A stretch of 64,000 nucleotides of DNA, taken from the NCBI GenBank assembly GCA_016195665.1, contig JACPZD010000024.1, positions 23,997 to 87,996 on the forward strand, written 5' to 3'. How positions within the stretch are numbered: the stretch's first letter is position 1; each line of letters begins with the position of its first letter. Of this stretch, positions 13,956 through 63,444 are shown piece after piece. Origin of the DNA: Gammaproteobacteria bacterium. GTDB lineage: Bacteria > Pseudomonadota > Gammaproteobacteria > SURF-13. The notes beneath the pieces are model-generated. The model was not told the DNA's origin. It ran no database searches and saw only the letters and a program-made list of their open reading frames with translations. Both the position numbers and the translations under genes were made by a program.

Positions 13956-13980
13956 GTAGGGCCGAATTCATTCGGCCTAC
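13956..13980. repeat. REP-like hairpin family A, copy 2
   Basis: GTAGGGCCGAATTCATTCGGCCTAC between the yyaL stop and the PfkB kinase stop (convergent). Confidence 0.6.
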
Positions 13981-22539: not shown

Positions 22540-22586
22540 TAAAAAAGGGCGATGCGTGTACGACTGCTCGCACACCCATCGCCCCT
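22540..22586 (-). terminator. intrinsic terminator-type expression platform of the glycine riboswitch
   Basis: Minus strand reads GGGCGATGGGTGTGCGAGCAGTCGTACACGCATCGCCC followed by TTTTTTATT, between the aptamers and the gcvT start. Confidence 0.5.
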
Positions 22587-22589
22587 CTG

Positions 22590-22765
22590 TCCTGTTACCT
22601 GAGAGTTTTATCCCCTTCGGTGCCCGGCAACACACATCGAGTCGTATCGCCGGATCTCTCCAGAATTTATATTACCCTGCGGTCCTTTTGCCTGAGCGTT
22701 TCCGGGCGGTTGCGCCTTCGGCGCCCCGTCATGTTTTTCTATGACGGGGGCTCTCCCACAGGGTA
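22590..22765 (-). ncRNA. tandem glycine riboswitch (two aptamers) in the gcvT leader
   Basis: Minus strand: aptamer 1 GGGAGAGCCCC...GGCGCCGAAGGCGCAACC...CTCAGGCAAAAGGACCGCAG; aptamer 2 CTGGAGAGATCC...GCACCGAAGGGGATAA...CTCTCAGGTAACAGGACAG; both match the glycine riboswitch consensus. Confidence 0.85.
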
Positions 22766-22818
22766 AACATCAGCGCCTACTATACTATGGAGGGCCAAGC
22801 TCTTGCCAGTGTAAAAAC

Positions 22819-22906
22819 GGTGAGGCGTGAGAGGTGAGAGGCTGGTACAAAGTGAGGAGTAAGGGGTAAGGGGTGAGGAATAAATGCCTTACGCCTTACG
22901 CCTCAC
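22819..22906. repeat. hairpin repeat family C (GTGAGGAGTGAGGCGTGAGG ... CCTCACGCCTCAC), copy 1
   Basis: Overlaps the 3' end of fbpB: the last codons (GTG AGG CGT AAG GCG TAA, VRRKA-stop) are encoded by the repeat arm. Other copies at 41521..41607 and 63347..63415. Confidence 0.65.
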
Positions 22907-24544
22907 TAACAGAATGACCGGCAACAAGCCCACCAGCACCAGGGTCAAGGCCGGCAGTGCGGCGCGCTGCCATTCGCCCTCCGAGGTCAGCTCGAAGATG
23001 CGGATGGCGAGCGTATCCCAATCGAACGGGCGCAACAGCAGGGTGGCGGGAAGTTCCTTCATGACCTCTACGAACACCAGCAGGGCCGCGCTTAAGAGTC
23101 CGGGGCGCAGGATCGGCAGGTACACGCGCCACAACAGCTCCCTATGGCTCGCGCCCAGGCTGCGCGCGGCCTGCTGCAGCGACGGCTTGATGCGTTCCAG
23201 GGCGCTCTCGACCGGGCCGTGGGCGACCGCCAGAAAACGCACCAGGTAGGCAAACAACAGGGCCGCCACACTGCTGCTCAACAGCAACCCGGTGGAAACA
23301 CCAAAGACAGTCTGTACGAACGCATCCACCTGCCGGTCCAGCCGGGTGAAGGCCAACATGATACCCACCGCCAGCACCGCGCCCGGCAAGGCGTACCCCA
23401 GCGTCGCCAGCCGCGTGACTGCCCGCATCAGGCGGCCCGGCCATTGTTTACGCACATAGGCAAGCAGCACGGCTGCCGCCACGGTGAACAGCGCGGCCAG
23501 CAGGCCGAGACTCACCGTGTGGCTGACAAATTCGACATAGCCCGCATCCAGATCCTCAATCCCCGCGCTCACCAGCCAGAAAATGAGCTGTCCGACCGGG
23601 ATGATAAAGGCAAGCGCCAGGACTGACAAAGCGAAGCCGCACGCCGCAGCGGCCCGCAGCCCTGTCAAGCGGTGACGATGACCCTGTACCGGTTTGCCGG
23701 CCGCATAATAGCGTGACTGGCCGCGCCAGTGCCGCTCGGCATACAAGGCCACCGCCACAAACAGCAACAGCAAGGTGGACAACTGAGCGGCCGCACCCAG
23801 ATTGAACAGGCCGAACCACGCCTTGTAGATCGCCGTGGTAAAGGTGTCGTAATTAAAGATCGTGACCGCTCCGAAATCGGCGAGCGTTTCCATCAGCGCC
23901 AGGGCGACACCGGCGGCGATGGCCGGCCGCGCCATCGGCAGGGCGATGCGCACAAACGCCGCGCGGGGGCTCAAGCCCAGGCTGCGGCCGGCCTCCATCA
24001 ACGTGCGTCCCTGACTCAGGAAGGCGCTGCGCGCCAGCATGTACACATAAGGATACAGGGCGAGGGTCATCACCGCGATCACGCCGCCCTCTGAGCGGAT
24101 GCGCGGGAACCAATAGCCGTTCTGGCCGAATACCGCACGCAACGCCGCCTGCACCGGGCCGCTGAAATCCAGCAGGCCCACCGCCACAAAGGCCATCACG
24201 TAGGCGGGGATGCCGAGCGGCAGCATCAACGCCCACTCAAAGACGCGCCGGCCCGGGAACTCATACATCACGGTCAGCCAGGCGAGCCCCACACCCAGCA
24301 CCAACACACCCGCCCCCACACCCAATAGCAACACCAGGGTGTTACGCAGCAATTCACCCAGCACCGTATCCGCGAGATGCCGCCACACCTCGCTGCTCGG
24401 CGTGAGCCAGGCGGGCAGCAGCATCAAGACCGGCATGCTCACCAGCACGGCGATCAACAGGGCGGCGACCCTCCACCACCCGCCGTCCGAGACGCGCCAG
24501 GCCGGGCGCACGGCCTGTGTGTCCACACTACCGGGATAAAACAT
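22889..24544 (-). CDS. fbpB: Fe(3+) ABC transporter permease, fused two-domain type (FbpB/HitB-like)
   Basis: 551 aa with two ABC-permease EAA-loop domains; directly downstream of the periplasmic iron-binding protein gene. Confidence 0.8.
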   Translation of the reverse strand: MFYPGSVDTQAVRPAWRVSDGGWWRVAALLIAVLVSMPVLMLLPAWLTPSSEVWRHLADTVLGELLRNTLVLLLGVGAGVLVLGVGLAWLTVMYEFPGRRVFEWALMLPLGIPAYVMAFVAVGLLDFSGPVQAALRAVFGQNGYWFPRIRSEGGVIAVMTLALYPYVYMLARSAFLSQGRTLMEAGRSLGLSPRAAFVRIALPMARPAIAAGVALALMETLADFGAVTIFNYDTFTTAIYKAWFGLFNLGAAAQLSTLLLLFVAVALYAERHWRGQSRYYAAGKPVQGHRHRLTGLRAAAACGFALSVLALAFIIPVGQLIFWLVSAGIEDLDAGYVEFVSHTVSLGLLAALFTVAAAVLLAYVRKQWPGRLMRAVTRLATLGYALPGAVLAVGIMLAFTRLDRQVDAFVQTVFGVSTGLLLSSSVAALLFAYLVRFLAVAHGPVESALERIKPSLQQAARSLGASHRELLWRVYLPILRPGLLSAALLVFVEVMKELPATLLLRPFDWDTLAIRIFELTSEGEWQRAALPALTLVLVGLLPVILLVRRKA

Positions 24545-30787: not shown

Positions 30788-30860
30788 AATTTCACCGCAG
30801 AGGGCGCGGAGGAGAAATAAGTTATTTGATCGCAGTTCTCTGTGTCCTCCGCGGTGAAAC
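30788..30860. repeat. hairpin repeat family B, copy 2
   Basis: TTCACCGCAGAGGGCGCGGAGGAG...CTGTGTCCTCCGCGGTGAA. Confidence 0.7.
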
Positions 30861-37719: not shown

Positions 37720-38976
37720 CTAGCTTTTCTTGGCCCGTAATTGCAGGCGGCTCTCCACCTTGTTGTCGCGGGAGCTGGCCGATTGAATCTCCGCTTCCAT
37801 CTTCGATTGCGCCGCGAGCCGCTGCTTGAGTTGATCCAGCACCTGAAGATCCTGAACCCTGAGGTCGAGATTCAACTGGCCTTCCTTGAATGTGATGTTG
37901 CGCAGCTCCAGATTGGGGGTGTCCTTGAGCGGACCGCCGGCCTGCGTCAATAATTCCAGAAAGCCCTCACCCGCTCCTTTGTTGCCGCGCAGCGCGTCCA
38001 GACGCCGCTGCATCTGCACCTTGGGGTTGACCACCTTGCTGGCATCGGGAAAGGCCTGGAGATACGTCTGTTCGATCTGTTTTTGCAGTTTCGGCGACTG
38101 ACGGCTCAGGCTGACGACCTCGCTCACGGTCATCCCTACATACACGACCAACCATAACGCCAGCAGCGCGGCGGCGGGTTTCCACGGACGCCACAGCTTT
38201 TCGAGTTGCTCGCGCCGGCTATAGTCGCCTTGCAAGAGATTGATGGCGAGATCTTCGTGGCAGTTGCGAGCCAGCACCGCCAAGGCGTCTTCGGGGGAGG
38301 CCTCACGGCTCACCGCCATGCCCAAGGTCTGAGGCCATGTCTCGGCAGGCAGCGCAGGCGCGCCCGGGGTGTCCAGGATACGCAGCCGCGCGGGGCCGGC
38401 ATCGCCGGCCTCAGCGATGGCCAGGCTGAGCAGGGTTTCGAGGTTGTCGTGATCGGCCGCAAAACCCGCTTGCGCGCCGCTGCGGCAGAGTGCGCCTCCT
38501 GCTTCGCGCAGCACCGTCCACGTCCCTTCCTCGTAAGGCAGCGCGAGGACGGCGGGAACCAGCAGATCAGGCTGGAAACCGGCGCCGCGCAAGTAGCCCA
38601 GCCAGGCATCCATCTTGCCCCGCGCCACCACTGCAACGGAAATGGCCTGATCGGCCTGCCGGCCCAGCGCAAAATGTAAGTCCTCGACCTCGCTGCCGAG
38701 CTGATCTTCCAGGGCATAGGGGATGGCCTGCGCGAGGCGCTGGCGGCCCACATTGGGAACGGCGGCGCCCGCCAGCAACACGTCGCTGGCGGGCGTCAAG
38801 ACAATGACCTGCCGGCCGGGAGCAAGCGCCAGCGCTTCCTGGATGCGCCCATGCGCGACGGCCCCTTGCGGCTCGCCGGCGTCATCCATCGCCAGCCAGC
38901 TCAAGGCGAACGCTGACTCGCCGGCCGCGGCGCCGCTTGTGTCATCAATACGAATAAATAACCGGTTACGCATCAA
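37720..38976 (-). CDS. gspL: type II secretion system protein L
   Basis: 418 aa; cytoplasmic actin-like domain plus a TM segment; between gspK and gspM. Confidence 0.75.
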   Translation of the reverse strand: MMRNRLFIRIDDTSGAAAGESAFALSWLAMDDAGEPQGAVAHGRIQEALALAPGRQVIVLTPASDVLLAGAAVPNVGRQRLAQAIPYALEDQLGSEVEDLHFALGRQADQAISVAVVARGKMDAWLGYLRGAGFQPDLLVPAVLALPYEEGTWTVLREAGGALCRSGAQAGFAADHDNLETLLSLAIAEAGDAGPARLRILDTPGAPALPAETWPQTLGMAVSREASPEDALAVLARNCHEDLAINLLQGDYSRREQLEKLWRPWKPAAALLALWLVVYVGMTVSEVVSLSRQSPKLQKQIEQTYLQAFPDASKVVNPKVQMQRRLDALRGNKGAGEGFLELLTQAGGPLKDTPNLELRNITFKEGQLNLDLRVQDLQVLDQLKQRLAAQSKMEAEIQSASSRDNKVESRLQLRAKKS

Positions 38977-39959
38977 TAGTCGCCTATGCCCCGCATCAAA
39001 ACCTGGACTTTCCCTGTGGGGTCCCGATACAGCAAGGTGTGTAACTGTACCTGTCCGCGCCCGGCCTCGCCAGTGGCCGTGACCAAAAAATGATTGCTGG
39101 AGATGTCGGCGCGCGCGGTGACTTTGTCCGCACCCACGATATCGGTGAACTGGGTAATGGTCTCAAATCCCTTGCCTTCGCGCACATCGAGCAGCCGCGC
39201 CGCACCTGCCGTATCCAAATTGGCGACCAGCGCCGCCAGCACGGGGGCAGGGGCGGTATTGACGTTGATGGGGGTAGGCAGAGGCACCGGCGAGCCCGTG
39301 CCGATGAGCGCGCGCAGCGGCAACGCCGTGACGTAGGGTTCCAGGGTCTTTACGATCTCGGGAGTAAAACCCTTGACCAGTGCGAGTTCGCTGGGGCTGA
39401 CCATAGGGGCGTTGGCGGTGCGATAGGGCGGCTTGCGGTCGAGGTAGTCCAAATCTTCCGCCCCGTTGGGTAGTTGATCCACGTTCACGTCTATCCAGTC
39501 TATCGCGGCTTGGGCGAGATCCGGATCGAGATGCAGGTTGGCGAGCAGGCGCTGAAAGACCAGCAGATCAGCCTGACTGACGGCGTTATTCACCCACAGA
39601 TTGTTGAGGTTGAAACGGCCCTGCAGGTCTTCGATCTTGCCGGCCACCTTGCCGCCCGCGACCTCGATGGGCGGCAGCGCCGTGGCCCAGTCCTCATTCA
39701 GCGTGTCGCTCACCTTGTTCTTGGTCTGGCCGTCACGGAAATCTTGCGCTAACACGCCCTGCGCCCAGCTCTCCACCCCCAGCGTGAACAGATAGGCCTG
39801 ATCGCCGTCCAGGATATTTCCGGCGCGGCGGATATCCACCTGCTGACGCGCCGCCATGCCCACGGCGATGATGGTGACCAGCGCGACGACCAACAGTGCC
39901 GTGATGAGCGCGACACCGCGGGAGTGTTGTGGCGTGAAGATCCTTGTCCGCATCTTCAA
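38973..39959 (-). CDS. gspK: type II secretion minor pseudopilin K
   Basis: 328 aa; N-terminus RGVALITALLVVALVTIIAV. Confidence 0.8.
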   Translation of the reverse strand: MKMRTRIFTPQHSRGVALITALLVVALVTIIAVGMAARQQVDIRRAGNILDGDQAYLFTLGVESWAQGVLAQDFRDGQTKNKVSDTLNEDWATALPPIEVAGGKVAGKIEDLQGRFNLNNLWVNNAVSQADLLVFQRLLANLHLDPDLAQAAIDWIDVNVDQLPNGAEDLDYLDRKPPYRTANAPMVSPSELALVKGFTPEIVKTLEPYVTALPLRALIGTGSPVPLPTPINVNTAPAPVLAALVANLDTAGAARLLDVREGKGFETITQFTDIVGADKVTARADISSNHFLVTATGEAGRGQVQLHTLLYRDPTGKVQVLMRGIGDY

Positions 39960-40591
39960 CCTTCTCCCACTACGCGGAACAACCTGTTAATTCGCCCCCA
40001 GCCCTTGATCTCTACGCTCACTTGTATGGCGCGCGGCAAGGTGACCTTTTCATTATTCGCCGCCGCATCGGGCTTGGGCCACAGCGCTTGCTCGGCTAGA
40101 CTTTTGTCCAGAAATTGCACTTCAACCGCAGTGACGTTATCCAGCAGCACGGACTCTTGCGGCTCGGCCGACGGCCCCTGATCGAGCACACTCCAACTGA
40201 GCCGCACTAACCGGCCCTCCTTGAGCTGATAGGCGATGCGCTGCAAGTGGCTGCGCGCCTGGCCCGCCGGGTTGCGCCAGCCGGTGCGGGTAAATTCCAG
40301 CAAGGTCTCGCCGCCCGATTCGCCGCGCAGCGCCGGCTGGCGGTCGCCCAGACCGTCGCGCACGCTGCGCGCCACGATCTGTTCGATGTCACGCTCCATG
40401 CGAGTAAAACCCAACTGCAACTCCGCCAGCTCCGCCGCCTGCTTGTCGGAAGCCGCGCGGGTGTTGAGCACGCTCTGCAAGCCTCCATAGGCCATCGCCG
40501 CCACCACGCCGAAGATGGCCAAGGCCACCAACAGTTCGAGCAACGTGAAGCCGCTTGTCCTGCGGCGAAAATGATATCTAAAGTGGCTCAT
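39956..40591 (-). CDS. gspJ: type II secretion minor pseudopilin J
   Basis: Prepilin motif ...RTSG/FTLLELLVALAIFG. Confidence 0.8.
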   Translation of the reverse strand: MSHFRYHFRRRTSGFTLLELLVALAIFGVVAAMAYGGLQSVLNTRAASDKQAAELAELQLGFTRMERDIEQIVARSVRDGLGDRQPALRGESGGETLLEFTRTGWRNPAGQARSHLQRIAYQLKEGRLVRLSWSVLDQGPSAEPQESVLLDNVTAVEVQFLDKSLAEQALWPKPDAAANNEKVTLPRAIQVSVEIKGWGRINRLFRVVGEG

Positions 40592-40597
40592 GGGCCC

Positions 40598-40966
40598 TTA
40601 TTGCGGCTTGAGGAGATAACCCACCAGAGAAGTCACCGGCTCGCCGCCCTCGGTGGCGCTGACCGCGACATCCATGCGGCGCACGTCGGGGTCGGGGGTG
40701 TTTTGCACCGTAATCTTCCAGTACCACTCGTGCGGCCCCATCGGTGCGCTGCCGGTTTCGGAACCCGCCTCGGGCCATTTGCGGGCAATCTGCAACTCGG
40801 CGGCCTTGTTCATGGCGACCCAGTGCGCCAGGGTGCGATCGCGTAGATAACTCTGGTTGGAGACGTGCGCGCCGACACCCTTCATCATCGCCGCCAGGGC
40901 GATGGCGAGCACCGCCAGGGCCACCATCACCTCCAACAAGGTGAAGCCTTTAACCGTTCTTATCAT
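40598..40966 (-). CDS. gspI: type II secretion minor pseudopilin I
   Basis: MIRTVKG/FTLLEVMVALAVL prepilin leader and N-methylation site. Confidence 0.85.
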   Translation of the reverse strand: MIRTVKGFTLLEVMVALAVLAIALAAMMKGVGAHVSNQSYLRDRTLAHWVAMNKAAELQIARKWPEAGSETGSAPMGPHEWYWKITVQNTPDPDVRRMDVAVSATEGGEPVTSLVGYLLKPQ

Positions 40967-41561
40967 GCTGGGCCTTCATCACCTTGAGCGCGCCGTTGGC
41001 CGTGCCGACGATCTGGTAATCCTCTACGCCTTCGGTGTGCAAGGTGGCGGTGAACGGTGTAGCCTCACCGCTCGATAACAGATAAATGCGAGGTGTCTTT
41101 TCTTCGTCCCCTTTTCGTGCCAGATCCTCTTCCAGTTTTTTATCTACATCGTCCGCGCTCTTCCCGGAGGTTTGGGTGAAATGGATCTCCTCTCCTTCCA
41201 GCTTCATTTCCAGACGCATACCGCCGGGCAGACGGCGCGGCCTCAACGCATCTTGATCAGAACCCACTGCCTGCCAGCCCTTGGCCTCCAGCACCAGGAA
41301 TTGATAGCCGCTGCCTTCCTCGGTCAATTCCAATGCCAGTTCCTTGGCCTGTAGCACCGATTCCTGTCCGGCGAGACTCAGGCGCGCAGCCAGGCTTTGC
41401 GCCTCCTGCTCAGCACGCTGTTCCTGATCGCGGTTGGTTATCGAAAGCGCGGCAAAGGTGAGGGTGATGCCGATGATGAAGATCACCACAATCAATTCGA
41501 GGAGGGTAAAGCCTTTTGCTGGTGAGGCGTGAGGAGTGAGGAGTGAGGTGTTACGCCTCAC
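40950..41561 (-). CDS. gspH: type II secretion minor pseudopilin H; start codon, Shine-Dalgarno and leader peptide lie inside a family C hairpin repeat
   Basis: ...SPAKG/FTLLELIVVIFIIG prepilin motif. No ATG in the leader region; GAGGAG-ttaggc-GTG at about 41561 gives leader MRRNTSLLTPHASPAKG, all repeat-encoded; the track ORF extends to 41594. Confidence 0.7.
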   Translation of the reverse strand: MRRNTSLLTPHASPAKGFTLLELIVVIFIIGITLTFAALSITNRDQEQRAEQEAQSLAARLSLAGQESVLQAKELALELTEEGSGYQFLVLEAKGWQAVGSDQDALRPRRLPGGMRLEMKLEGEEIHFTQTSGKSADDVDKKLEEDLARKGDEEKTPRIYLLSSGEATPFTATLHTEGVEDYQIVGTANGALKVMKAQHDKNG

Positions 41562-41607
41562 GCCTAACTCCTCACGCCTCACAGTTTTTCCCACGCCTCA
41601 CTCCTCA
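41521..41607. repeat. hairpin repeat family C, copy 2
   Basis: GGTGAGGCGTGAGGAGTGAGGAGTGAGG...CCTCACGCCTAACTCCTCACGCCTCAC...CCTCACTCCTCAC; overlaps the gspH 5' end. Confidence 0.65.
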
Positions 41608-41615
41608 CTTTTTTC

Positions 41616-42054
41616 TCACTCCAAATTCCAGTTTCCGATGTCGGCGTTCGGCCCATCGCCGCCGAGCTGGCCGTCGGCGCCCAGGGTAAAGATGTCTACC
41701 GCGCCGTGCGTACCGGGACTGAGATATTGATAAGGCCGCTGCCACGGATCTTTCGGCATACGGTCAATATAGCCGCCCTGTTTCCAGTTGCGCGGCTCGG
41801 GCGGCGTAGCCGGTTTGTTCACCAGCGCCTCGATGCCCTGTTCGGTGGTGGGATAGACGTAGTTATCCAATTTATAGAGATTGAGCGCGCCTTCCAAGGT
41901 CCGTATATCCTGTTTCGCCTTGGTGATGCGCGCGACATCGGGCCGGTCCAACACCCTGGGCACCACTATCGCGGCCAGGATGCCGAGAATCACCACCACG
42001 ACCATGACTTCGATCAGGGTAAAACCGCTATGACATTGTTTAAAGCGTATCCAT
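41616..42054 (-). CDS. gspG: type II secretion major pseudopilin G, with apparent +1 frameshift in the leader
   Basis: Body ...QCHSG/FTLIEVMVVVVILGILAAIVVP is canonical GspG. The only SD-preceded start (GGGGAG-ctattt-ATG at 42054) reads MDTL then TAA; dropping one T from the CTTTAAA run near 42042 gives MDTLKQCHSGFTLIE. Confidence 0.75.
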
Positions 42055-42088
42055 AAATAGCTCCCCTGTGTCCCTTGTGCTGAAAAAG

Positions 42089-42158
42089 CTTCACCACGGA
42101 GGGCGCGGAGGAGAAACAAACCCTTCTTGAGGGTATTCCTCTGCGTCCTCTGCGGTAA
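42089..42158. repeat. hairpin repeat family B, copy 3
   Basis: TTCACCACGGAGGGCGCGGAGGAGAAA...CCTCTGCGTCCTCTGCGGTAAA, just upstream of gspG. Confidence 0.7.
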
Positions 42159-42196
42159 ATTATTTATGGATAAGCTCTTAGCATATATCTTCATGT

Positions 42197-43417
42197 TCAT
42201 TTCACCATTTGGTTCAAATCGAATATGGGCAACAGGATAGCGATGACGATCAGCAACACGATACCGCCCATTGCGAGAATCAGCGCCGGCTCGAACAGGC
42301 CCACCAGCGCGGCCATCAGGGTTTCCATCTCGCGCTCCTGACTCTGCGCCGCCCGTTCCAGCATCGCATCCAGCGTGCCGCTGGCCTCGCCGCTGGCGAT
42401 CAGATGGATGGTCATCGGCGGAAAGTAACGGCTGCGCTCCAGCGCCGTGTGCAGGCTGGCGCCCTCGCGCACCCTGGCGGAGGCCTCCTCCACGGCCTTA
42501 CGCATCGGCAGATTGGACATCACCTGCGCGGAGATGCGCAAACCCTCAAGGACCGGCACGCTGCTCGCGGTGAGAATGCTGAAGGTGCGCGCGAAACGCG
42601 CCGCATTAAGCCCGCGCACCAGCCGCGAAACCAGCGGCGCCGACAACAGCAGTTTGTGAACACGAAAGCGCGGCCCTTCATAGCGCATCAGCATCCTGAA
42701 ACCCGCCACGGCGGCAATGATCAGCGCCAGGATCGCCAGGCCGTAATCGCGGATAAACCCGCTCAATGCAATCAGCCCGCGCGTCAGCACCGGCAGTTGC
42801 TGGCCGATATTCTGAAACACCTGCACCACCTGCGGCACCACGTAGGCAAGCAGGGCCGTCACCACCAGGATGGCGACGCCGGTGAGCAGCACCGGGTAGA
42901 TCAGCGCGAGCATCATCTTCTGGCGCATCTGCTGGCGCGCCTCGGTGTAGTCGGCCAGCCGTTCCAGCACCACGTCCAGATAACCCGACTGCTCGCCCGC
43001 GGCGACCGTGGAGCGAAACAGGTCATCGAACACGGACGGGAAATCGGCGAGCGCGGCGGCGAGCGAATGACCCTCCAGCACGCGCGAGCGCACCGCCATC
43101 AGCATGTTGCTCAGCCGCGCCTTTTCGGTCTGTTGCGAAACGGCGCGCAGGCTCTCTTCGATCGGCAACCCGGAACGCACCAGCGTCGCCAGTTGCCGGG
43201 TGATGAGCGCCAGGTCGGTGGCGCTGACGCCGCGCTGGAAGCTGAATTGCACACCACCGCGATCACGCGCCTCTTTCTGACGCACCTCCTCGACGTTGAG
43301 CGGCGTCCAGCCCTTTTCACGCAACTGCTGGCGCACCTGGCGCGGGGTGTCGCCCTCCAGCACGCCCTTGCGGTTGCGTCCGGTGGTGTCTAATGCGGCA
43401 AATTCAAAGGCAGCCAT
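42197..43417 (-). CDS. gspF: type II secretion inner-membrane platform protein F
   Basis: 406 aa, duplicated GspF/PilC domains, three TM segments. Confidence 0.85.
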   Translation of the reverse strand: MAAFEFAALDTTGRNRKGVLEGDTPRQVRQQLREKGWTPLNVEEVRQKEARDRGGVQFSFQRGVSATDLALITRQLATLVRSGLPIEESLRAVSQQTEKARLSNMLMAVRSRVLEGHSLAAALADFPSVFDDLFRSTVAAGEQSGYLDVVLERLADYTEARQQMRQKMMLALIYPVLLTGVAILVVTALLAYVVPQVVQVFQNIGQQLPVLTRGLIALSGFIRDYGLAILALIIAAVAGFRMLMRYEGPRFRVHKLLLSAPLVSRLVRGLNAARFARTFSILTASSVPVLEGLRISAQVMSNLPMRKAVEEASARVREGASLHTALERSRYFPPMTIHLIASGEASGTLDAMLERAAQSQEREMETLMAALVGLFEPALILAMGGIVLLIVIAILLPIFDLNQMVK

Positions 43418-49311: not shown

Positions 49312-49427
49312 CGCCATAAATCTACTGCGCGTCTTTGATGCGGGTGCGTGCGGTGCTCGGAATCCTCATGTACTTCTATGTACACTCCGGTTCCTGCGCT
49401 CCGCCGCCCCCGCCTGAAACCCGCTCG

Positions 49428-49841
49428 CTACGATTTCTGTCGCCCAGATTTGACGCCCTCCGCGGACTCGTCCGCCTTGCTCATCAACAGATCAAAATTA
49501 CGATACGCGTATTTTGGATCGGCACCGACGTTTTCAATGCCCTCGGACGTTAGATCCGCGCCATAGTTAAATGCTCGAAAATACAATTGGGAATGATCCT
49601 TGGCGGATACCAGGCGCGCGCTCACCCTCACCCACGGCTTATAGTCGAATGAGTTTGCGGTAGAGAGGTAACCGACGGCGACATACCACACGTCCAGTAT
49701 TGCGTCGGCATCGGTTCGGATGGCTGAATAGTCAGCCTGATTTTCATTTTTTATCGCCGGCCGCTGGTCGGAAAGATAAACGATCTCGTAATTCTGCTTC
49801 TTTAACTCACGCTGTAGCGCTTGGGCAATTTCGGCGCCCAT
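49428..49841 (-). CDS. hypothetical protein (137 aa, no signal peptide; possibly a gene remnant) in the low-GC islet
   Basis: Only ORF in this stretch with plausible codon usage; a stop codon lies immediately upstream of the ATG. Confidence 0.35.
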   Translation of the reverse strand: MGAEIAQALQRELKKQNYEIVYLSDQRPAIKNENQADYSAIRTDADAILDVWYVAVGYLSTANSFDYKPWVRVSARLVSAKDHSQLYFRAFNYGADLTSEGIENVGADPKYAYRNFDLLMSKADESAEGVKSGRQKS

Positions 49842-63346: not shown

Positions 63347-63415
63347 GTGAGGAGTTAGGAGTGAGGGGTGAGGCGTGAGGCGTAAAGTGCTGTTGCTCCT
63401 CACGCCTTACGCCCC
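63347..63415. repeat. hairpin repeat family C, copy 3
   Basis: TGTGAGGAGTTAGGAGTGAGGGGTGAGGCGTGAGGCG...CTCCTCACGCCTTACGCC. Confidence 0.65.
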
Positions 63416-63444
63416 ACCCCCTAACACCTGTAGTAGAATATCCC

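What the first reader, a model, noticed from the sequence alone, without database searches (positions are those of the whole stretch)
41521..41607. Hairpin repeat family C donates the ribosome-binding site, GTG start and entire prepilin leader of gspH, and the C-terminal codons of fbpB
The GTGAGGAGTGAGGCGTGAGG...CCTCACGCCTCAC element occurs three times (22819..22906, 41521..41607, 63347..63415). In the gsp operon it overlaps the 5' end of gspH. There is no ATG anywhere in the leader region, and the only SD-start combination is GAGGAG-N6-GTG inside the repeat. The 17-aa leader MRRNTSLLTPHASPAKG before the FTLLE cleavage site is therefore translated from repeat DNA. At fbpB the same family encodes the last five codons and the stop. 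The repeat's GAGGAG / GTG composition may make it a portable translation-initiation cassette, and its hairpin could occlude the gspH RBS, a possible post-transcriptional control point inside the T2SS operon.
Basis: seen in the sequence. Interest (0 to 1): 0.55.

Follow-up and report, generated by a model that had tools for sequence, protein, structure and literature searches.

The report
Heptamer hairpin repeat rewrites pseudopilin leader
A small palindromic repeat built from 7-base units sits on the boundary between two secretion-system genes and supplies the ribosome-binding site, the GTG start and nearly all of the cleaved-off leader peptide of GspH, which shows how selfish repeats can overwrite the unconstrained ends of genes without breaking them.

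Summary
A hairpin made of tandem heptamers, (GTGAGGN)n-loop-(NCCTCAC)n, occurs at three sites in the window.

Close orthologues show an ancestral ATG leader, MRINSKG. Seven independent heptamer alleles lack it, yet all keep the gspH frame open, and mature GspH is under purifying selection (dN/dS 0.09-0.36). So the start and leader are repeat-encoded.

Three in-frame GTGs exist. GTG 41594 has its own GAGGAG-N6, lies 21 nt after the gspG stop and needs 10 kcal/mol to open, against 23-31 for the others. It gives a 28-residue leader.

At fbpB only K-A-stop are new; V-R-R are ancestral codons that already resembled a heptamer.

The element's sequence supplies stops in all frames, SD-N8-GTG and a stop-free arm on either strand. 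In a 120-locus cross-phylum sample, 23 of 68 upstream genes stop inside such hairpins. A second repeat family sits in frame in the gspG leader.

Repeats donating gene ends are already known (Neisseria REP2, RPE), so this is a new variant. Regulation by the hairpin is untested.

The parts
41522..41582 (.). Main heptamer hairpin. Arms 41522-41551 and 41553-41582 (4 units each). On the gspH mRNA (minus strand) the 5' arm is GTGAGGC GTGAGGA GTTAGGC GTGAGGC GT and the 3' arm is AC ACCTCAC TCCTCAC TCCTCAC GCCTCAC.
   Evidence: (I1: 30 nt, 90% complementary)
41590..41608 (-). Extra half-array upstream of the stem on the mRNA strand (GTGAGGAGTGAGGCGTGGG). It carries SD GAGGAG (41606-41601) and GTG 41594.
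41592..41594 (-). Favoured gspH start codon (GTG). GAGGAG-N6 lies upstream, it is 21 nt after the gspG stop, and it is the first start after the in-frame TGA at 41600-41598. It gives the 28-residue leader MGKTVRREELGVRRNTSLLTPHASPAKG.
   Evidence: NCBI model P0001 = 214 aa; opening 10.1 kcal/mol
41580..41582 (-). Second in-frame GTG, at the base of the stem (24-residue leader). It has no good SD.
   Evidence: opening 31.2 kcal/mol
41559..41561 (-). Its SD GAGGAG lies at 41573-41568. Both SD and GTG are inside the 5' arm of the stem.
   Evidence: opening 23.1 kcal/mol
41511..41594 (-). Leader-coding region of gspH (28 codons including Gly-1 at 41513-41511). All but the last about 3 codons are repeat DNA.
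41496..41510 (-). F-T-L-L-E codons, the start of mature GspH. In the predicted MFE structure CCCUCCUC pairs with the upstream SD/GTG half-array.
40950..41594 (-). gspH ORF (minor pseudopilin; Pfam N_methyl PF07963 and GspH PF12019).
41616..42200 (-). gspG ORF (major pseudopilin), with stop TGA at 41618-41616, 8 nt before the half-array.
42031..42176 (-). In-frame insertion totalling 144 nt (48 codons) in the gspG leader-coding region, made of a different, MITE-like repeat family (core CCGCAGAGGACGCAGAGGAA at 42155-42136). It turns MNMKTYAKQSG|FTLIE into a 59-residue leader (32 residues if the in-frame TTG is used).
22820..22906 (.). Composite copy at the fbpB 3' end: a hairpin (22852-22879 / 22886-22906) plus an orphan half-array (22820-22840). 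It lies between the fbpB stop and the tandem glycine riboswitch.
22898..22906 (-). fbpB codons GTG AGG CGT (V-R-R). These are ancestral conserved residues (GTC AGG CGG in a repeat-free 97% orthologue) that now form the first unit of the hairpin arm.
22889..22897 (-). AAG GCG TAA. These are the only fbpB codons (K, A, stop) that are new relative to orthologues. They replace S-E-S-E-V-stop.
63347..63417 (.). Third copy, purely intergenic. It lies 6 nt after the stop of the cpoB/ybgF-like gene (63341) and about 28 nt before the queE-like ATG (63445).

Best explanation
A REP-like hairpin built of tandem heptamers colonised the gspG-gspH spacer and overwrote the ancestral gspH start region (ATG-CGA-ATA-AAT-TCC, MRINS).

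The element is an inverted repeat, so either strand reads 5'-(GTGAGGN)n-loop-(NCCTCAC)n-3'. That order supplies:
- a TGA in all three frames within three units;
- built-in GAGG-N8-GTG initiation sites;
- an arm with no stop and no start in any frame.

gspH therefore kept a working start. Translation most likely begins at GTG 41594, which has a GAGGAG-N6 SD, lies 21 nt after the gspG stop and sits outside the main stem. The ribosome then reads through the 30-bp hairpin. The result is a 28-residue, net-positive leader that the prepilin peptidase removes at G|FTLLE, so mature GspH is unchanged.

The same logic explains fbpB. The array abuts a native heptamer-like V-R-R codon triplet and replaces the variable C-terminal tail and stop with K-A-TAA.

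Both gene ends are sequence-unconstrained (a cleaved leader and a variable tail), which is why the encroachment is tolerated.

Shown: the anatomy, loss of the ATG, frame maintenance, and purifying selection on the mature protein. Inferred: which GTG is used, processing of the long leader, and any damping of gspH translation by the hairpin.
For: Anatomy:
- searches give the sequence, arms and arrays.

Ancestral state:
- Orthologues that are 88-92% identical in the mature part start with ATG MRINSKG|FTLLE.

Frame maintenance:
- Seven distinct heptamer alleles exist (window, L004, L006, L007, L008, L010, L132), differing in length and structure.
- In all seven, the gspH frame is open from a start within -1 to +21 nt of the gspG stop through to Gly-1.
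- The other two frames mostly contain no start after their last stop.

Start accessibility:
- Opening energy of the first start is 2.8-12.3 kcal/mol in every allele, against 17-33 kcal/mol for the starts inside the main stem (the TTG of L008 lies near its loop).
- Allele L010 also has a fourth in-frame start, a GTG three codons before Gly-1 that gives a 4-residue leader (8.4 kcal/mol, no SD).
- NCBI's gene model uses 41594.

Gene still functional:
- The mature ORF is intact in all nine alleles compared (187-189 codons), with dN/dS 0.09-0.36, including pairs of heptamer alleles.

Tolerance of the leader:
- Only Gly-1 is critical for prepilin processing, and the leader is hydrophilic and cytoplasmic (PMC4471445).

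fbpB:
- All orthologues end in ...LLVRR plus a variable tail.
- The repeat-free orthologue L134 reads GTC AGG CGG TCG GAA TCT GAA GTT TAA.

Generality:
- In a cross-phylum sample, 23 of 68 upstream genes have their stop at unit position +1, +8 or +15 of such hairpins.
- In an earlier pass, 10 of 10 real-looking ORFs ending in such hairpins were confirmed as real genes by Pfam.

Parallel case:
- The gspG leader in this window carries an in-frame insertion of another repeat family.
Against: - There are no expression, proteomic or ribosome-profiling data, so the start codon is inferred from thermodynamics and comparative ORF structure only.
- The GTGAGGA-GTTAGGN-GTGAGG pattern that keeps the frame open also occurs in the non-coding copy at 63347. 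Part of the 'open frame' signal could therefore be family consensus rather than selection.
- The heptamer alleles are related by descent, so they are not seven independent trials.
- A 28-residue leader exceeds the 6-26 range described for class III signal peptides, and far exceeds the under-10 typical of type IVa pilins and pseudopilins (PMC4471445). Processing efficiency is unknown.
- Even GTG 41594 and its SD are paired in the MFE structure, with the FTLLE codons.
Confidence: 0.6

Rival explanations
1. gspH starts at GTG 41561 (SD GAGGAG 41573-41568), giving the 17-residue leader MRRNTSLLTPHASPAKG. The hairpin occludes this RBS and acts as a post-transcriptional switch.
For: - The GAGGAG-N6-GTG geometry is as good as at 41594.
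- A 17-residue leader is closer to known pseudopilin leaders (PMC4471445).
- A GTG at the equivalent last unit of the 5' arm is in frame in all alleles.
Against: - The SD and GTG lie inside a 30-bp stem, with an opening cost of 23.1 kcal/mol against 10.1 for GTG 41594.
- A ribosome that starts at 41594 reads the same frame, so 41561 is not needed.
- In all seven alleles the frame stays open upstream of this codon to a start next to the gspG stop, including ATGs in four alleles. That is unexpected if only the last GTG mattered.
Confidence: 0.2
2. The hairpin at this junction is kept by selection, not merely tolerated. It would set the GspG (major) to GspH (minor) ratio, either by protecting the gspG 3' end from exonucleases or by impeding initiation and elongation into gspH, as shown for REP elements within operons. 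This reading can coexist with the best explanation.
For: - All 11 junction alleles examined fold far better than shuffles (z -2.6 to -9.4), although they come from at least three unrelated repeat families (heptamer, REP-like GTGCGAATGAATTCGCAC..., and CCGCAGAGGACGCGGAGG).
- A 50%-identical orthologue carries a different heptamer array (GTRATGN) at the same place.
- The SD/GTG region is paired in the MFE structure.
Against: - Persistence may simply reflect an insertion hotspot in a tolerant site.
- There is no U-tract after the stem on the sense strand, so it is not an intrinsic terminator.
- No transcript or protein abundance data exist.
- Distant T2SS operons such as those of E. coli and P. 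aeruginosa were not examined here.
Confidence: 0.3
3. Contingency locus. The unit is 7 nt, so gain or loss of one unit between the start and Gly-1 shifts the frame and would switch gspH, and with it T2SS function, off and on by slipped-strand mispairing.
For: - Alleles differ in unit number.
- In the window the two alternative frames contain no start, so a change of one unit would be an OFF state.
- Heptameric repeats are slippage-prone and over-represented in bacteria (PMC4692102).
Against: - All 7 assembled alleles are in the ON frame.
- The arrays are short (3-5 units) and imperfect (variable N, GTTAGG variants), which lowers slippage rates.
- No read-level heterogeneity could be examined.
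Confidence: 0.07
4. gspH was inactivated by the insertion and is a decaying pseudogene. The upstream GTG ORF extension would then be meaningless.
For: - The ancestral ATG is gone.
- The leader is unusually long.
- gspG in the same operon also carries a large leader insertion.
Against: - The mature ORF is intact, with dN/dS 0.09-0.36 between heptamer alleles, the same as between ATG alleles.
- The frame is maintained in all seven alleles despite indels.
- All neighbouring gsp genes are intact.
Confidence: 0.04

Closest known systems
REP / REPIN elements (repetitive extragenic palindromes, mobilised by RAYT transposases)
   Same: Short imperfect palindromes, dispersed in many copies, sitting at gene boundaries and within operons, and forming stable RNA hairpins. 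When close to stop codons they are known to affect mRNA stability and translation (own knowledge: Newbury et al. 1987; Liang, Rudd and Deutscher 2015; review PMC3184786).
   Different: Each arm here is a tandem array of 7-nt units with variable copy number. No GTAG-type head was seen and no RAYT association was examined. The same unit consensus appears in many phyla, whereas REP families are lineage-specific.
Neisseria REP2 and Borrelia inverted-repeat sequences
   Same: Repeats located immediately upstream of genes that carry a promoter, a ribosome-binding site and the start codon (PMC3184786). That makes them repeat-donated translation initiation signals.
   Different: Those are longer, non-heptameric elements with an ATG. 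Here the start is a GTG and the donated peptide is a cleaved prepilin leader. No promoter was detected.
Rickettsia palindromic elements (RPE), and BRE/RUP/BOX insertions that extend gene 5' or 3' ends
   Same: Palindromic repeats translated in frame as part of functional proteins, or extending their termini (Ogata 2000; Croucher 2011; Hot 2011, as reviewed in PMC3184786).
   Different: RPEs are 100-150 bp and sit inside mature proteins. Here the translated repeat is removed post-translationally (leader) or replaces a 2-5 residue tail.
Heptameric tandem repeats of bacteria (cyanobacterial STRR, Xanthomonas GGGAATC, Nostoc GGGGAYT, Beggiatoaceae TAACTGA)
   Same: A 7-nt unit, intergenic, with length variation in 7-nt steps between relatives, often just upstream of start codons, and an unexplained cross-phylum distribution (PMC4692102; PMC4679880).
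   Different: Those are direct arrays; inverted pairs are noted only as occasional rearrangements. None has the GTGAGGN unit. None was reported to donate start or stop codons. No paper in the searched library contains the GTGAGGN array sequence.

Membership tests
Class III (type IV prepilin) signal peptide / T2SS minor pseudopilin GspH | Leader ending in Gly-1, followed by F+1, E+5 and about 20 hydrophobic residues; N_methyl and GspH domains | tested here: met
   ...AKG|FTLLELIVVIFIIGITLTFAALS. PF07963 and PF12019 are recorded for P0001, which is 100% identical to the window ORF.
Class III (type IV prepilin) signal peptide / T2SS minor pseudopilin GspH | Short hydrophilic leader (6-26 aa overall; under 10, rarely up to 18, for type IVa pilins and pseudopilins) | tested here: inconclusive
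   The possible leaders are 28, 24 or 17 residues. The favoured 28 lies just outside the described range (PMC4471445). The leader is hydrophilic with net charge about +4.
REP / REPIN | Short imperfect palindrome in multiple dispersed, mostly extragenic copies | tested here: met
   Three sites in 64 kb, 16 motif hits against 0.1 expected. Stems of 19-30 bp.
REP / REPIN | Conserved GTAG/GTGG-type 5' head and an associated RAYT (Y1 transposase) gene flanked by inverted REPs | not tested
   No RAYT search was run. The unit starts GTGAGG, and no separate head motif was seen by eye.
MITE | Terminal inverted repeats flanked by a target-site duplication, with a cognate IS | tested here: inconclusive
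   For the heptamer element, comparison with the empty site at fbpB (L134 against the window) shows replacement of about 24 nt and no duplication. The separate gspG-leader insertion does have TIR-like ends (TATCCATAAATAA / TTATTTATGGATA).
Intrinsic (Rho-independent) terminator | GC-rich stem followed directly by a U-tract on the transcribed strand | tested here: not met
   On the gsp sense strand the stem is followed by CAGCAAAAGGC, and the scan found no terminator there. A T-run (AGTTTTT) follows only on the antisense (+) strand.
Repeat-donated initiation cassette (Neisseria REP2-like) | The repeat supplies the RBS and start codon of the downstream gene | tested here: met
   All in-frame starts and their SDs lie in repeat DNA, and no alternative exists downstream. 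The ancestral ATG is present only in repeat-free alleles. Actual use of the start was not measured.
Phase-variable simple sequence repeat (contingency locus) | ON/OFF frame heterogeneity caused by changes in unit number | tested here: not met
   All 7 alleles are in the ON frame. Within-population heterogeneity is not testable with these tools.

The most novel reading that the evidence does not exclude
The (GTGAGGN)n/(NCCTCAC)n hairpin may be a cross-phylum class of gene-boundary element. Its unit would be shaped so that either strand supplies, in order, stops in all three frames, an SD-N8-GTG initiation site, and an arm free of stops and starts. That would let it sit on, and rewrite, the ends of neighbouring genes with little damage.

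In this gammaproteobacterial clade, this element and two unrelated repeat families would have repeatedly remade the prepilin leaders of GspH and GspG. The resulting leaders (28-59 residues) would be the longest known for T2SS pseudopilins. The persistent hairpin would set the translation ratio of major to minor pseudopilin.
Probability: 0.2. Interest if true: 0.7.

Novelty: new variant of a known kind. Interest (0 to 1): 0.5.

Why it matters
- It gives a clean natural experiment for how small repeats invade gene termini. Closely related genomes (dS 0.1-0.5 in the mature gene) carry an ATG leader, three unrelated hairpin families, or heptamer arrays of different lengths at one gene boundary, and the mature protein stays under selection throughout.
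- It shows that the cleaved prepilin leader is a 'safe harbour' for repeat DNA. It predicts pseudopilin leaders (28-59 residues) well beyond the accepted range, which can be tested with prepilin peptidase assays.
- It warns annotators that starts and stops next to such repeats may be repeat-encoded.
- The wide taxonomic spread of the same 7-nt unit, tightly abutting stop and start codons, is unexplained. I found no description of it in the open literature.

Tried and rejected
- Rfam at gathering thresholds found nothing at any of the three sites. The only hits were a tRNA, a tandem glycine riboswitch and sX9.
- The promoter/terminator scan found nothing at the gspH hairpin.
- The metagenome scan with mature GspH gave only 3 loci, one of them new and useful (L132).
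- A search with a 131-residue FbpB C-terminal fragment returned only short fragment proteins at 81% identity or less. These gave the family consensus tail but no close orthologue. A full-length search was needed.
- A census of genes that might START inside such hairpins across phyla was unreliable, because most long ORFs running through the 3' arm were antisense 'shadow' ORFs of GC-rich genomes. With a longest-ORF filter, downstream genes mostly start 2-28 nt after the element, not inside it.
- My first stop-codon census mis-set the array start by one base. I corrected this and only the corrected numbers are used.
- I considered whether the GTTAGG unit that removes the in-frame TGA is an uncompensated, selected mutation. 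It is mismatched with its partner in the window but compensated (CCTAAC) in L006 and in the non-coding copy at 63347, so I do not claim it.
- Literature searches for the repeat sequence itself found only unrelated eukaryotic primers.
- The paper on REP-dependent trans-translation was not in the searchable library, so I cite it from my own knowledge only.
Full report
**1. What is in the sequence**

The window is 59.6% G+C. On its minus strand it carries a type II secretion operon in the usual order:

| Gene | Coordinates |
|---|---|
| gspF | 42197-43417 |
| gspG | 41616-42200 |
| gspH | 40950-41594 |
| gspI | 40598-40966 |
| gspJ | 39956-40591 |
| gspK | 38973-39959 |

The element is not a generic palindrome. 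Each arm is a tandem array of 7-nt units, (GTGAGGN)n on one side and (NCCTCAC)n on the other.
- Phased arrays lie at 22820-22840, 22852-22879 and 22886-22906; at 41522-41549, 41555-41582 and 41595-41608; and at 63347-63381 and 63397-63417.
- At gspH the arms 41522-41551 and 41553-41582 form a 30-bp stem that is 90% complementary.
- As RNA, the junction folds at -64.9 kcal/mol (z = -5.4). The other two copies fold at -40.3 and -56.3 kcal/mol (z = -4.5 and -5.5).
- Rfam has no family at any of the three sites.

**2. The gspH 5' end**

The minus strand reads as follows:
- gspG stops at TGA 41618-41616.
- Next comes GAAAAAA, then a half-array GTGAGGAGTGAGGCGTGGG (41608-41590), then AAAAACT.
- The stem-loop spans 41582-41522.
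- It is followed by CAGCAAAAGGC TTT ACC CTC CTC GAA.
- The Gly-1 codon is 41513-41511, so only A-K-G separate the repeat from F-T-L-L-E.

There is no ATG in any frame in this spacer. No ATG, GTG, TTG or near-cognate in-frame codon lies after 41559. An in-frame TGA sits at 41600-41598.

Three in-frame GTGs follow that TGA:

| GTG | SD | Position | Leader length | Opening cost |
|---|---|---|---|---|
| 41594 | GAGGAG 41606-41601, N6 | outside main stem | 28 aa | 10.1 kcal/mol |
| 41582 | none good | base of stem | 24 aa | 31.2 kcal/mol |

There are, however, three candidate starts and two identical SD-N6-GTG modules.

**3. Orthologues settle the history**

A protein search found 21 relatives. 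Their N-termini fall into classes, and I read the DNA of ten loci.
- *Class 1, ATG leader.* L001/L002 and L003 are 87-92% identical in the mature part and have ATG CGA ATA AAT TC(C/T) AAA GGC, giving MRINSKG|FTLLE. This is preceded by a different REP-like palindrome (GTGCGAATGAATTCGCAC-CTAC..GTAGG-GCCGAATTCATTCGGCC). The MRINS codons themselves resemble that repeat's unit, whose in-frame reading is VRMNSH.
- *Class 2, third hairpin family.* L009 has the core CCGCAGAGGACGCGGAGGAAA. The MRINS ATG has become AGG, and the only start is an ATG in the hairpin loop.
- *Class 3, heptamer alleles.* There are seven distinct alleles (window, L004=L005=L131, L006, L007, L008, L010, L132), with spacers of 98-169 nt and different numbers of units and modules.

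A 50%-identical orthologue (L137) carries inverted arrays of a different heptamer (GTRATGN / NCATYAC) at the same boundary, and its 3' arm is again inside the predicted leader.

The junction is therefore a long-standing hotspot, and repeat-made leaders are the rule in this clade.

**4. Is the gene still functional, and which start is used?**

Mature gspH is intact in all nine alleles compared (187-189 codons). Pairwise dN/dS is 0.09-0.36. Pairs of heptamer alleles (for example window-L006 0.19 and L008-L007 0.20) are no different from pairs of ATG alleles (L001-L003 0.17). The gene is under purifying selection, so it must be translated from some start upstream of Gly-1.

For each allele I compared the three reading frames of the spacer.
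- In the true frame, every allele is open from a start lying -1 to +21 nt from the gspG stop. The start is an ATG in L004, L010, L132 and L006, and a GTG in L007, L008 and the window.
- In the other two frames, the last stop falls at the end of the 5' arm. In most alleles no start follows: both other frames are empty in the window, L007, L010 and L132, and one is empty in L004 and L006.
- Taken as independent trials, the chance that all seven sit in a frame with a start is about 0.006. The alleles share ancestry, so this is an upper bound on the strength of the evidence, not a P-value.

Ensemble opening energies for positions -15 to +13 around each candidate show that the first start is by far the most accessible in every allele: 2.8-12.3 kcal/mol, against 17-33 kcal/mol for starts inside the main stem (L008's TTG lies near its loop). 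L010 also has a GTG only three codons before Gly-1 (8.4 kcal/mol), but it has no SD. NCBI's model for the identical protein (P0001, 214 aa) also starts at 41594.

I therefore favour GTG 41594 and the leader MGKTVRREELGVRRNTSLLTPHASPAKG. This is inference, and no expression data exist.

The leader is hydrophilic with net charge about +4, as the positive-inside rule requires. Only Gly-1 is known to be critical for prepilin peptidase. At 28 residues it lies just outside the 6-26 range reported for class III signal peptides, and it is several times the length typical of pseudopilins (PMC4471445). The other alleles imply leaders of 34-55 residues.

**5. Why this element can do it**

The element is an inverted repeat, so both strands read 5'-(GTGAGGN)n-loop-(NCCTCAC)n-3'. 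Three properties follow directly from the sequence.
- Seven is not a multiple of three, so three consecutive GTGAGGN units place a TGA in every frame. Any ORF running in is terminated within 21 nt.
- GAGG-N8-GTG (SD plus start) is built into any run of three or more units.
- The consensus NCCTCAC array contains no stop and no start in any frame. It reads ...LTPH/SPHA...

An in-frame GTG in unit i meets an in-frame TGA in unit i+2, unless that unit is the common GTTAGG variant. In every gspH allele the critical unit is GTTAGG or GTTGGG. The GTGAGGA-GTTAGGA-GTGAGG pattern also occurs in the non-coding copy at 63347, so I do not claim it as a selected change.

**6. The fbpB end**

The ORF 22889-24544 (minus strand) ends ...CTG TTA GTG AGG CGT AAG GCG TAA, and the hairpin begins at the GTG.
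- All orthologues, close and distant, end in ...PVILLVRR followed by a short variable tail: SGK, SAR, SESEV, SERD, SGADHH and others.
- The repeat-free 97%-identical orthologue L134 reads GTC AGG CGG TCG GAA TCT GAA GTT TAA AGCAGC|ACTGGCAAGAGC. The window rejoins it exactly at ACTGGCAAGAGC.
- So V-R-R are ancestral codons that already looked like a heptamer unit (GTCAGGC). They may have served as the seed or target. Only K-A-stop are new, and the tail is 3 residues shorter.
- A 95% orthologue (L135) carries yet another heptamer hairpin at the same place (VRRVKQ*).

**7. How general is it?**

- The hits come from Beta-, Gamma-, Alpha- and Deltaproteobacteria, Nitrospirota, Cyanobacteria (Nostoc, Stigonema), Chloroflexota, Gemmatimonadota, Acidobacteriota, Planctomycetota, Bacteroidota, Bacillota and Actinomycetota.
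- 44 of the 120 loci have at least 3 phased units on both arms, with up to 12 units on one arm. These are real arrays rather than chance matches, although some minimal hits could be chance.
- Of 68 upstream genes (longest six-frame ORF of at least 200 codons), 23 have their stop at unit position +1, +8 or +15 of the 5' arm, and 27 more stop within 30 nt upstream.
- In an earlier pass, ten real-looking ORFs ending in such hairpins were checked against Pfam and all are real genes: MurG, CcmE, DsbB, DUF2062, an FtsX-type permease, a hexapeptide transferase, Dxr, Pth, NuoE and a dihaem cytochrome c.
- Stop donation is therefore common for this class.
- Downstream genes usually start 2-28 nt after the element (30 of 54 genes) rather than inside it. 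The gspH case, in which the native ATG was lost, is the exception.

I found no paper in the searchable library that contains the array sequence. Heptameric direct repeats of other sequence are known in Xanthomonas, Nostoc and Beggiatoaceae.

**8. A parallel in the same operon**

In L001, gspG begins ATG AAC ATG AAG ACC TAC GCT AAA CAA AGC GGC TTT, giving MNMKTYAKQSG|FTLIE.

In the window the same ATG (42200) is followed by in-frame insertions totalling 144 nt (48 codons, within about 42176-42031). The larger one has TIR-like ends and a hairpin core, CCGCAGAGGACGCAGAGGAA. This is the same family as the L009 gspH junction, and it has further copies at 30795 and at 56498/56530.

The ORF stays open, giving a 59-residue leader, or 32 residues from an in-frame TTG. 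Two pseudopilins of one operon thus carry repeat-made leaders. This supports the view that the cleaved leader is a tolerant landing site.

**9. Does the hairpin regulate?**

In favour:
- In the MFE structure, the SD/GTG half-array pairs with the CCCUCCUC of the FTLLE codons, and the main stem lies 12 nt downstream of GTG 41594.
- All 11 junction alleles, from at least three repeat families, fold much better than shuffles (z -2.6 to -9.4).
- This is what one would expect if a hairpin lowers translation of the minor pseudopilin or stabilises the gspG message.

Against:
- It is equally what an insertion hotspot would give.
- No U-tract follows the stem on the sense strand, so it is not an intrinsic terminator.

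I rate a selected regulatory role at about 0.3. Nothing here tests it.

**10. Comparison with known systems, and verdict**

Repeats that carry an RBS and start codon (Neisseria REP2, Borrelia IRs), repeats translated in frame (RPE) and repeats that extend gene 5' or 3' ends (RUP, BOX, BRE) are established (PMC3184786).

This case is new in four respects:
- the heptamer-array architecture, with its built-in stop / SD-GTG / open-arm logic on both strands;
- donation of a complete prepilin leader that is later cleaved off;
- the turnover of several repeat families at one gene boundary;
- the wide taxonomic spread of the unit.

I classify it as a new variant of a known kind, with interest 0.5.

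Noticed in passing
window 42031-42176 (minus strand), with related copies at 30795-30814 and 56498-56549: The leader-coding region of gspG, the major pseudopilin, carries in-frame insertions totalling 144 nt, made of a second, MITE-like repeat family (core CCGCAGAGGACGCAGAGGAA, TIR-like ends TATCCATAAATAA/TTATTTATGGATA). This turns the 11-residue leader MNMKTYAKQSG seen in orthologues into a 59-residue leader (32 if the in-frame TTG is used). The same family occupies the gspG-gspH junction in orthologue L009.
   Followed up: partly
loci L011-L130 (genome-contig scan): Hairpins of inverted GT[GTAC]AGGN heptamer arrays occur in genomes of many phyla, including Proteobacteria, Nitrospirota, Cyanobacteria, Chloroflexota, Gemmatimonadota, Bacteroidota, Bacillota and Planctomycetota. 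They abut gene ends very tightly (stop within 30 nt or inside the arm; next start 2-28 nt after). No description was found in the searchable literature. Why the same 7-mer recurs across phyla is unexplained.
   Followed up: partly
L001 2950-3020, L003 960-1035; window 13956-13975: Orthologues with the ATG leader have a different REP-like element (GTGCGAATGAATTCGCAC-CTAC..GTAGG-GCCGAATTCATTCGGCC) just upstream. The MRINS codons (ATGCGAATAAATTCC) look like a degenerate third copy of its unit, so even the 'ancestral' leader may be repeat-derived. The window has one related copy at 13956-13975.
   Followed up: partly
L137 1065-1345: A gspH orthologue only about 50% identical carries inverted arrays of a different heptamer (GTGATGA/GTAATGG ... 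CCCATCAC) at the same gspG-gspH boundary. The 3' array lies inside its predicted 51-residue leader.
   Followed up: partly
L135 2600-2669: A 95%-identical fbpB orthologue has an independent heptamer hairpin allele at its 3' end (tail VRRVKQ*, with the stop TGA inside GTGAGGG). The fbpB end is therefore a recurrent landing site as well.
   Followed up: partly
window 41522-41582 compared with L006 1520-1590: The asymmetric loop of the hairpin (GTGTTACGC) is on the antisense strand in the window but on the sense strand in L006 (57/61 against 54/61 identities). This suggests inversion of the palindrome or gene conversion between its arms.
   Followed up: partly
window 22577-22768 (minus strand): A tandem glycine riboswitch (two RF00504 aptamers, 70.1 and 46.7 bits) lies upstream of gcvT. 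The fbpB-end repeat is wedged between the fbpB stop and this riboswitch. The repeat-free orthologue has only about 24 nt there.
   Followed up: no
window 49368-49441 (plus strand): A match to Rfam sX9 (Xanthomonas sRNA) at 48.3 bits, just above its gathering score of 44.
   Followed up: no
L006 1-1010: In this relative, restriction-enzyme genes (Eco57I and BsuBI/PstI families) lie directly upstream of gspG where gspF normally sits. The gsp operon is therefore interrupted or rearranged there.
   Followed up: no
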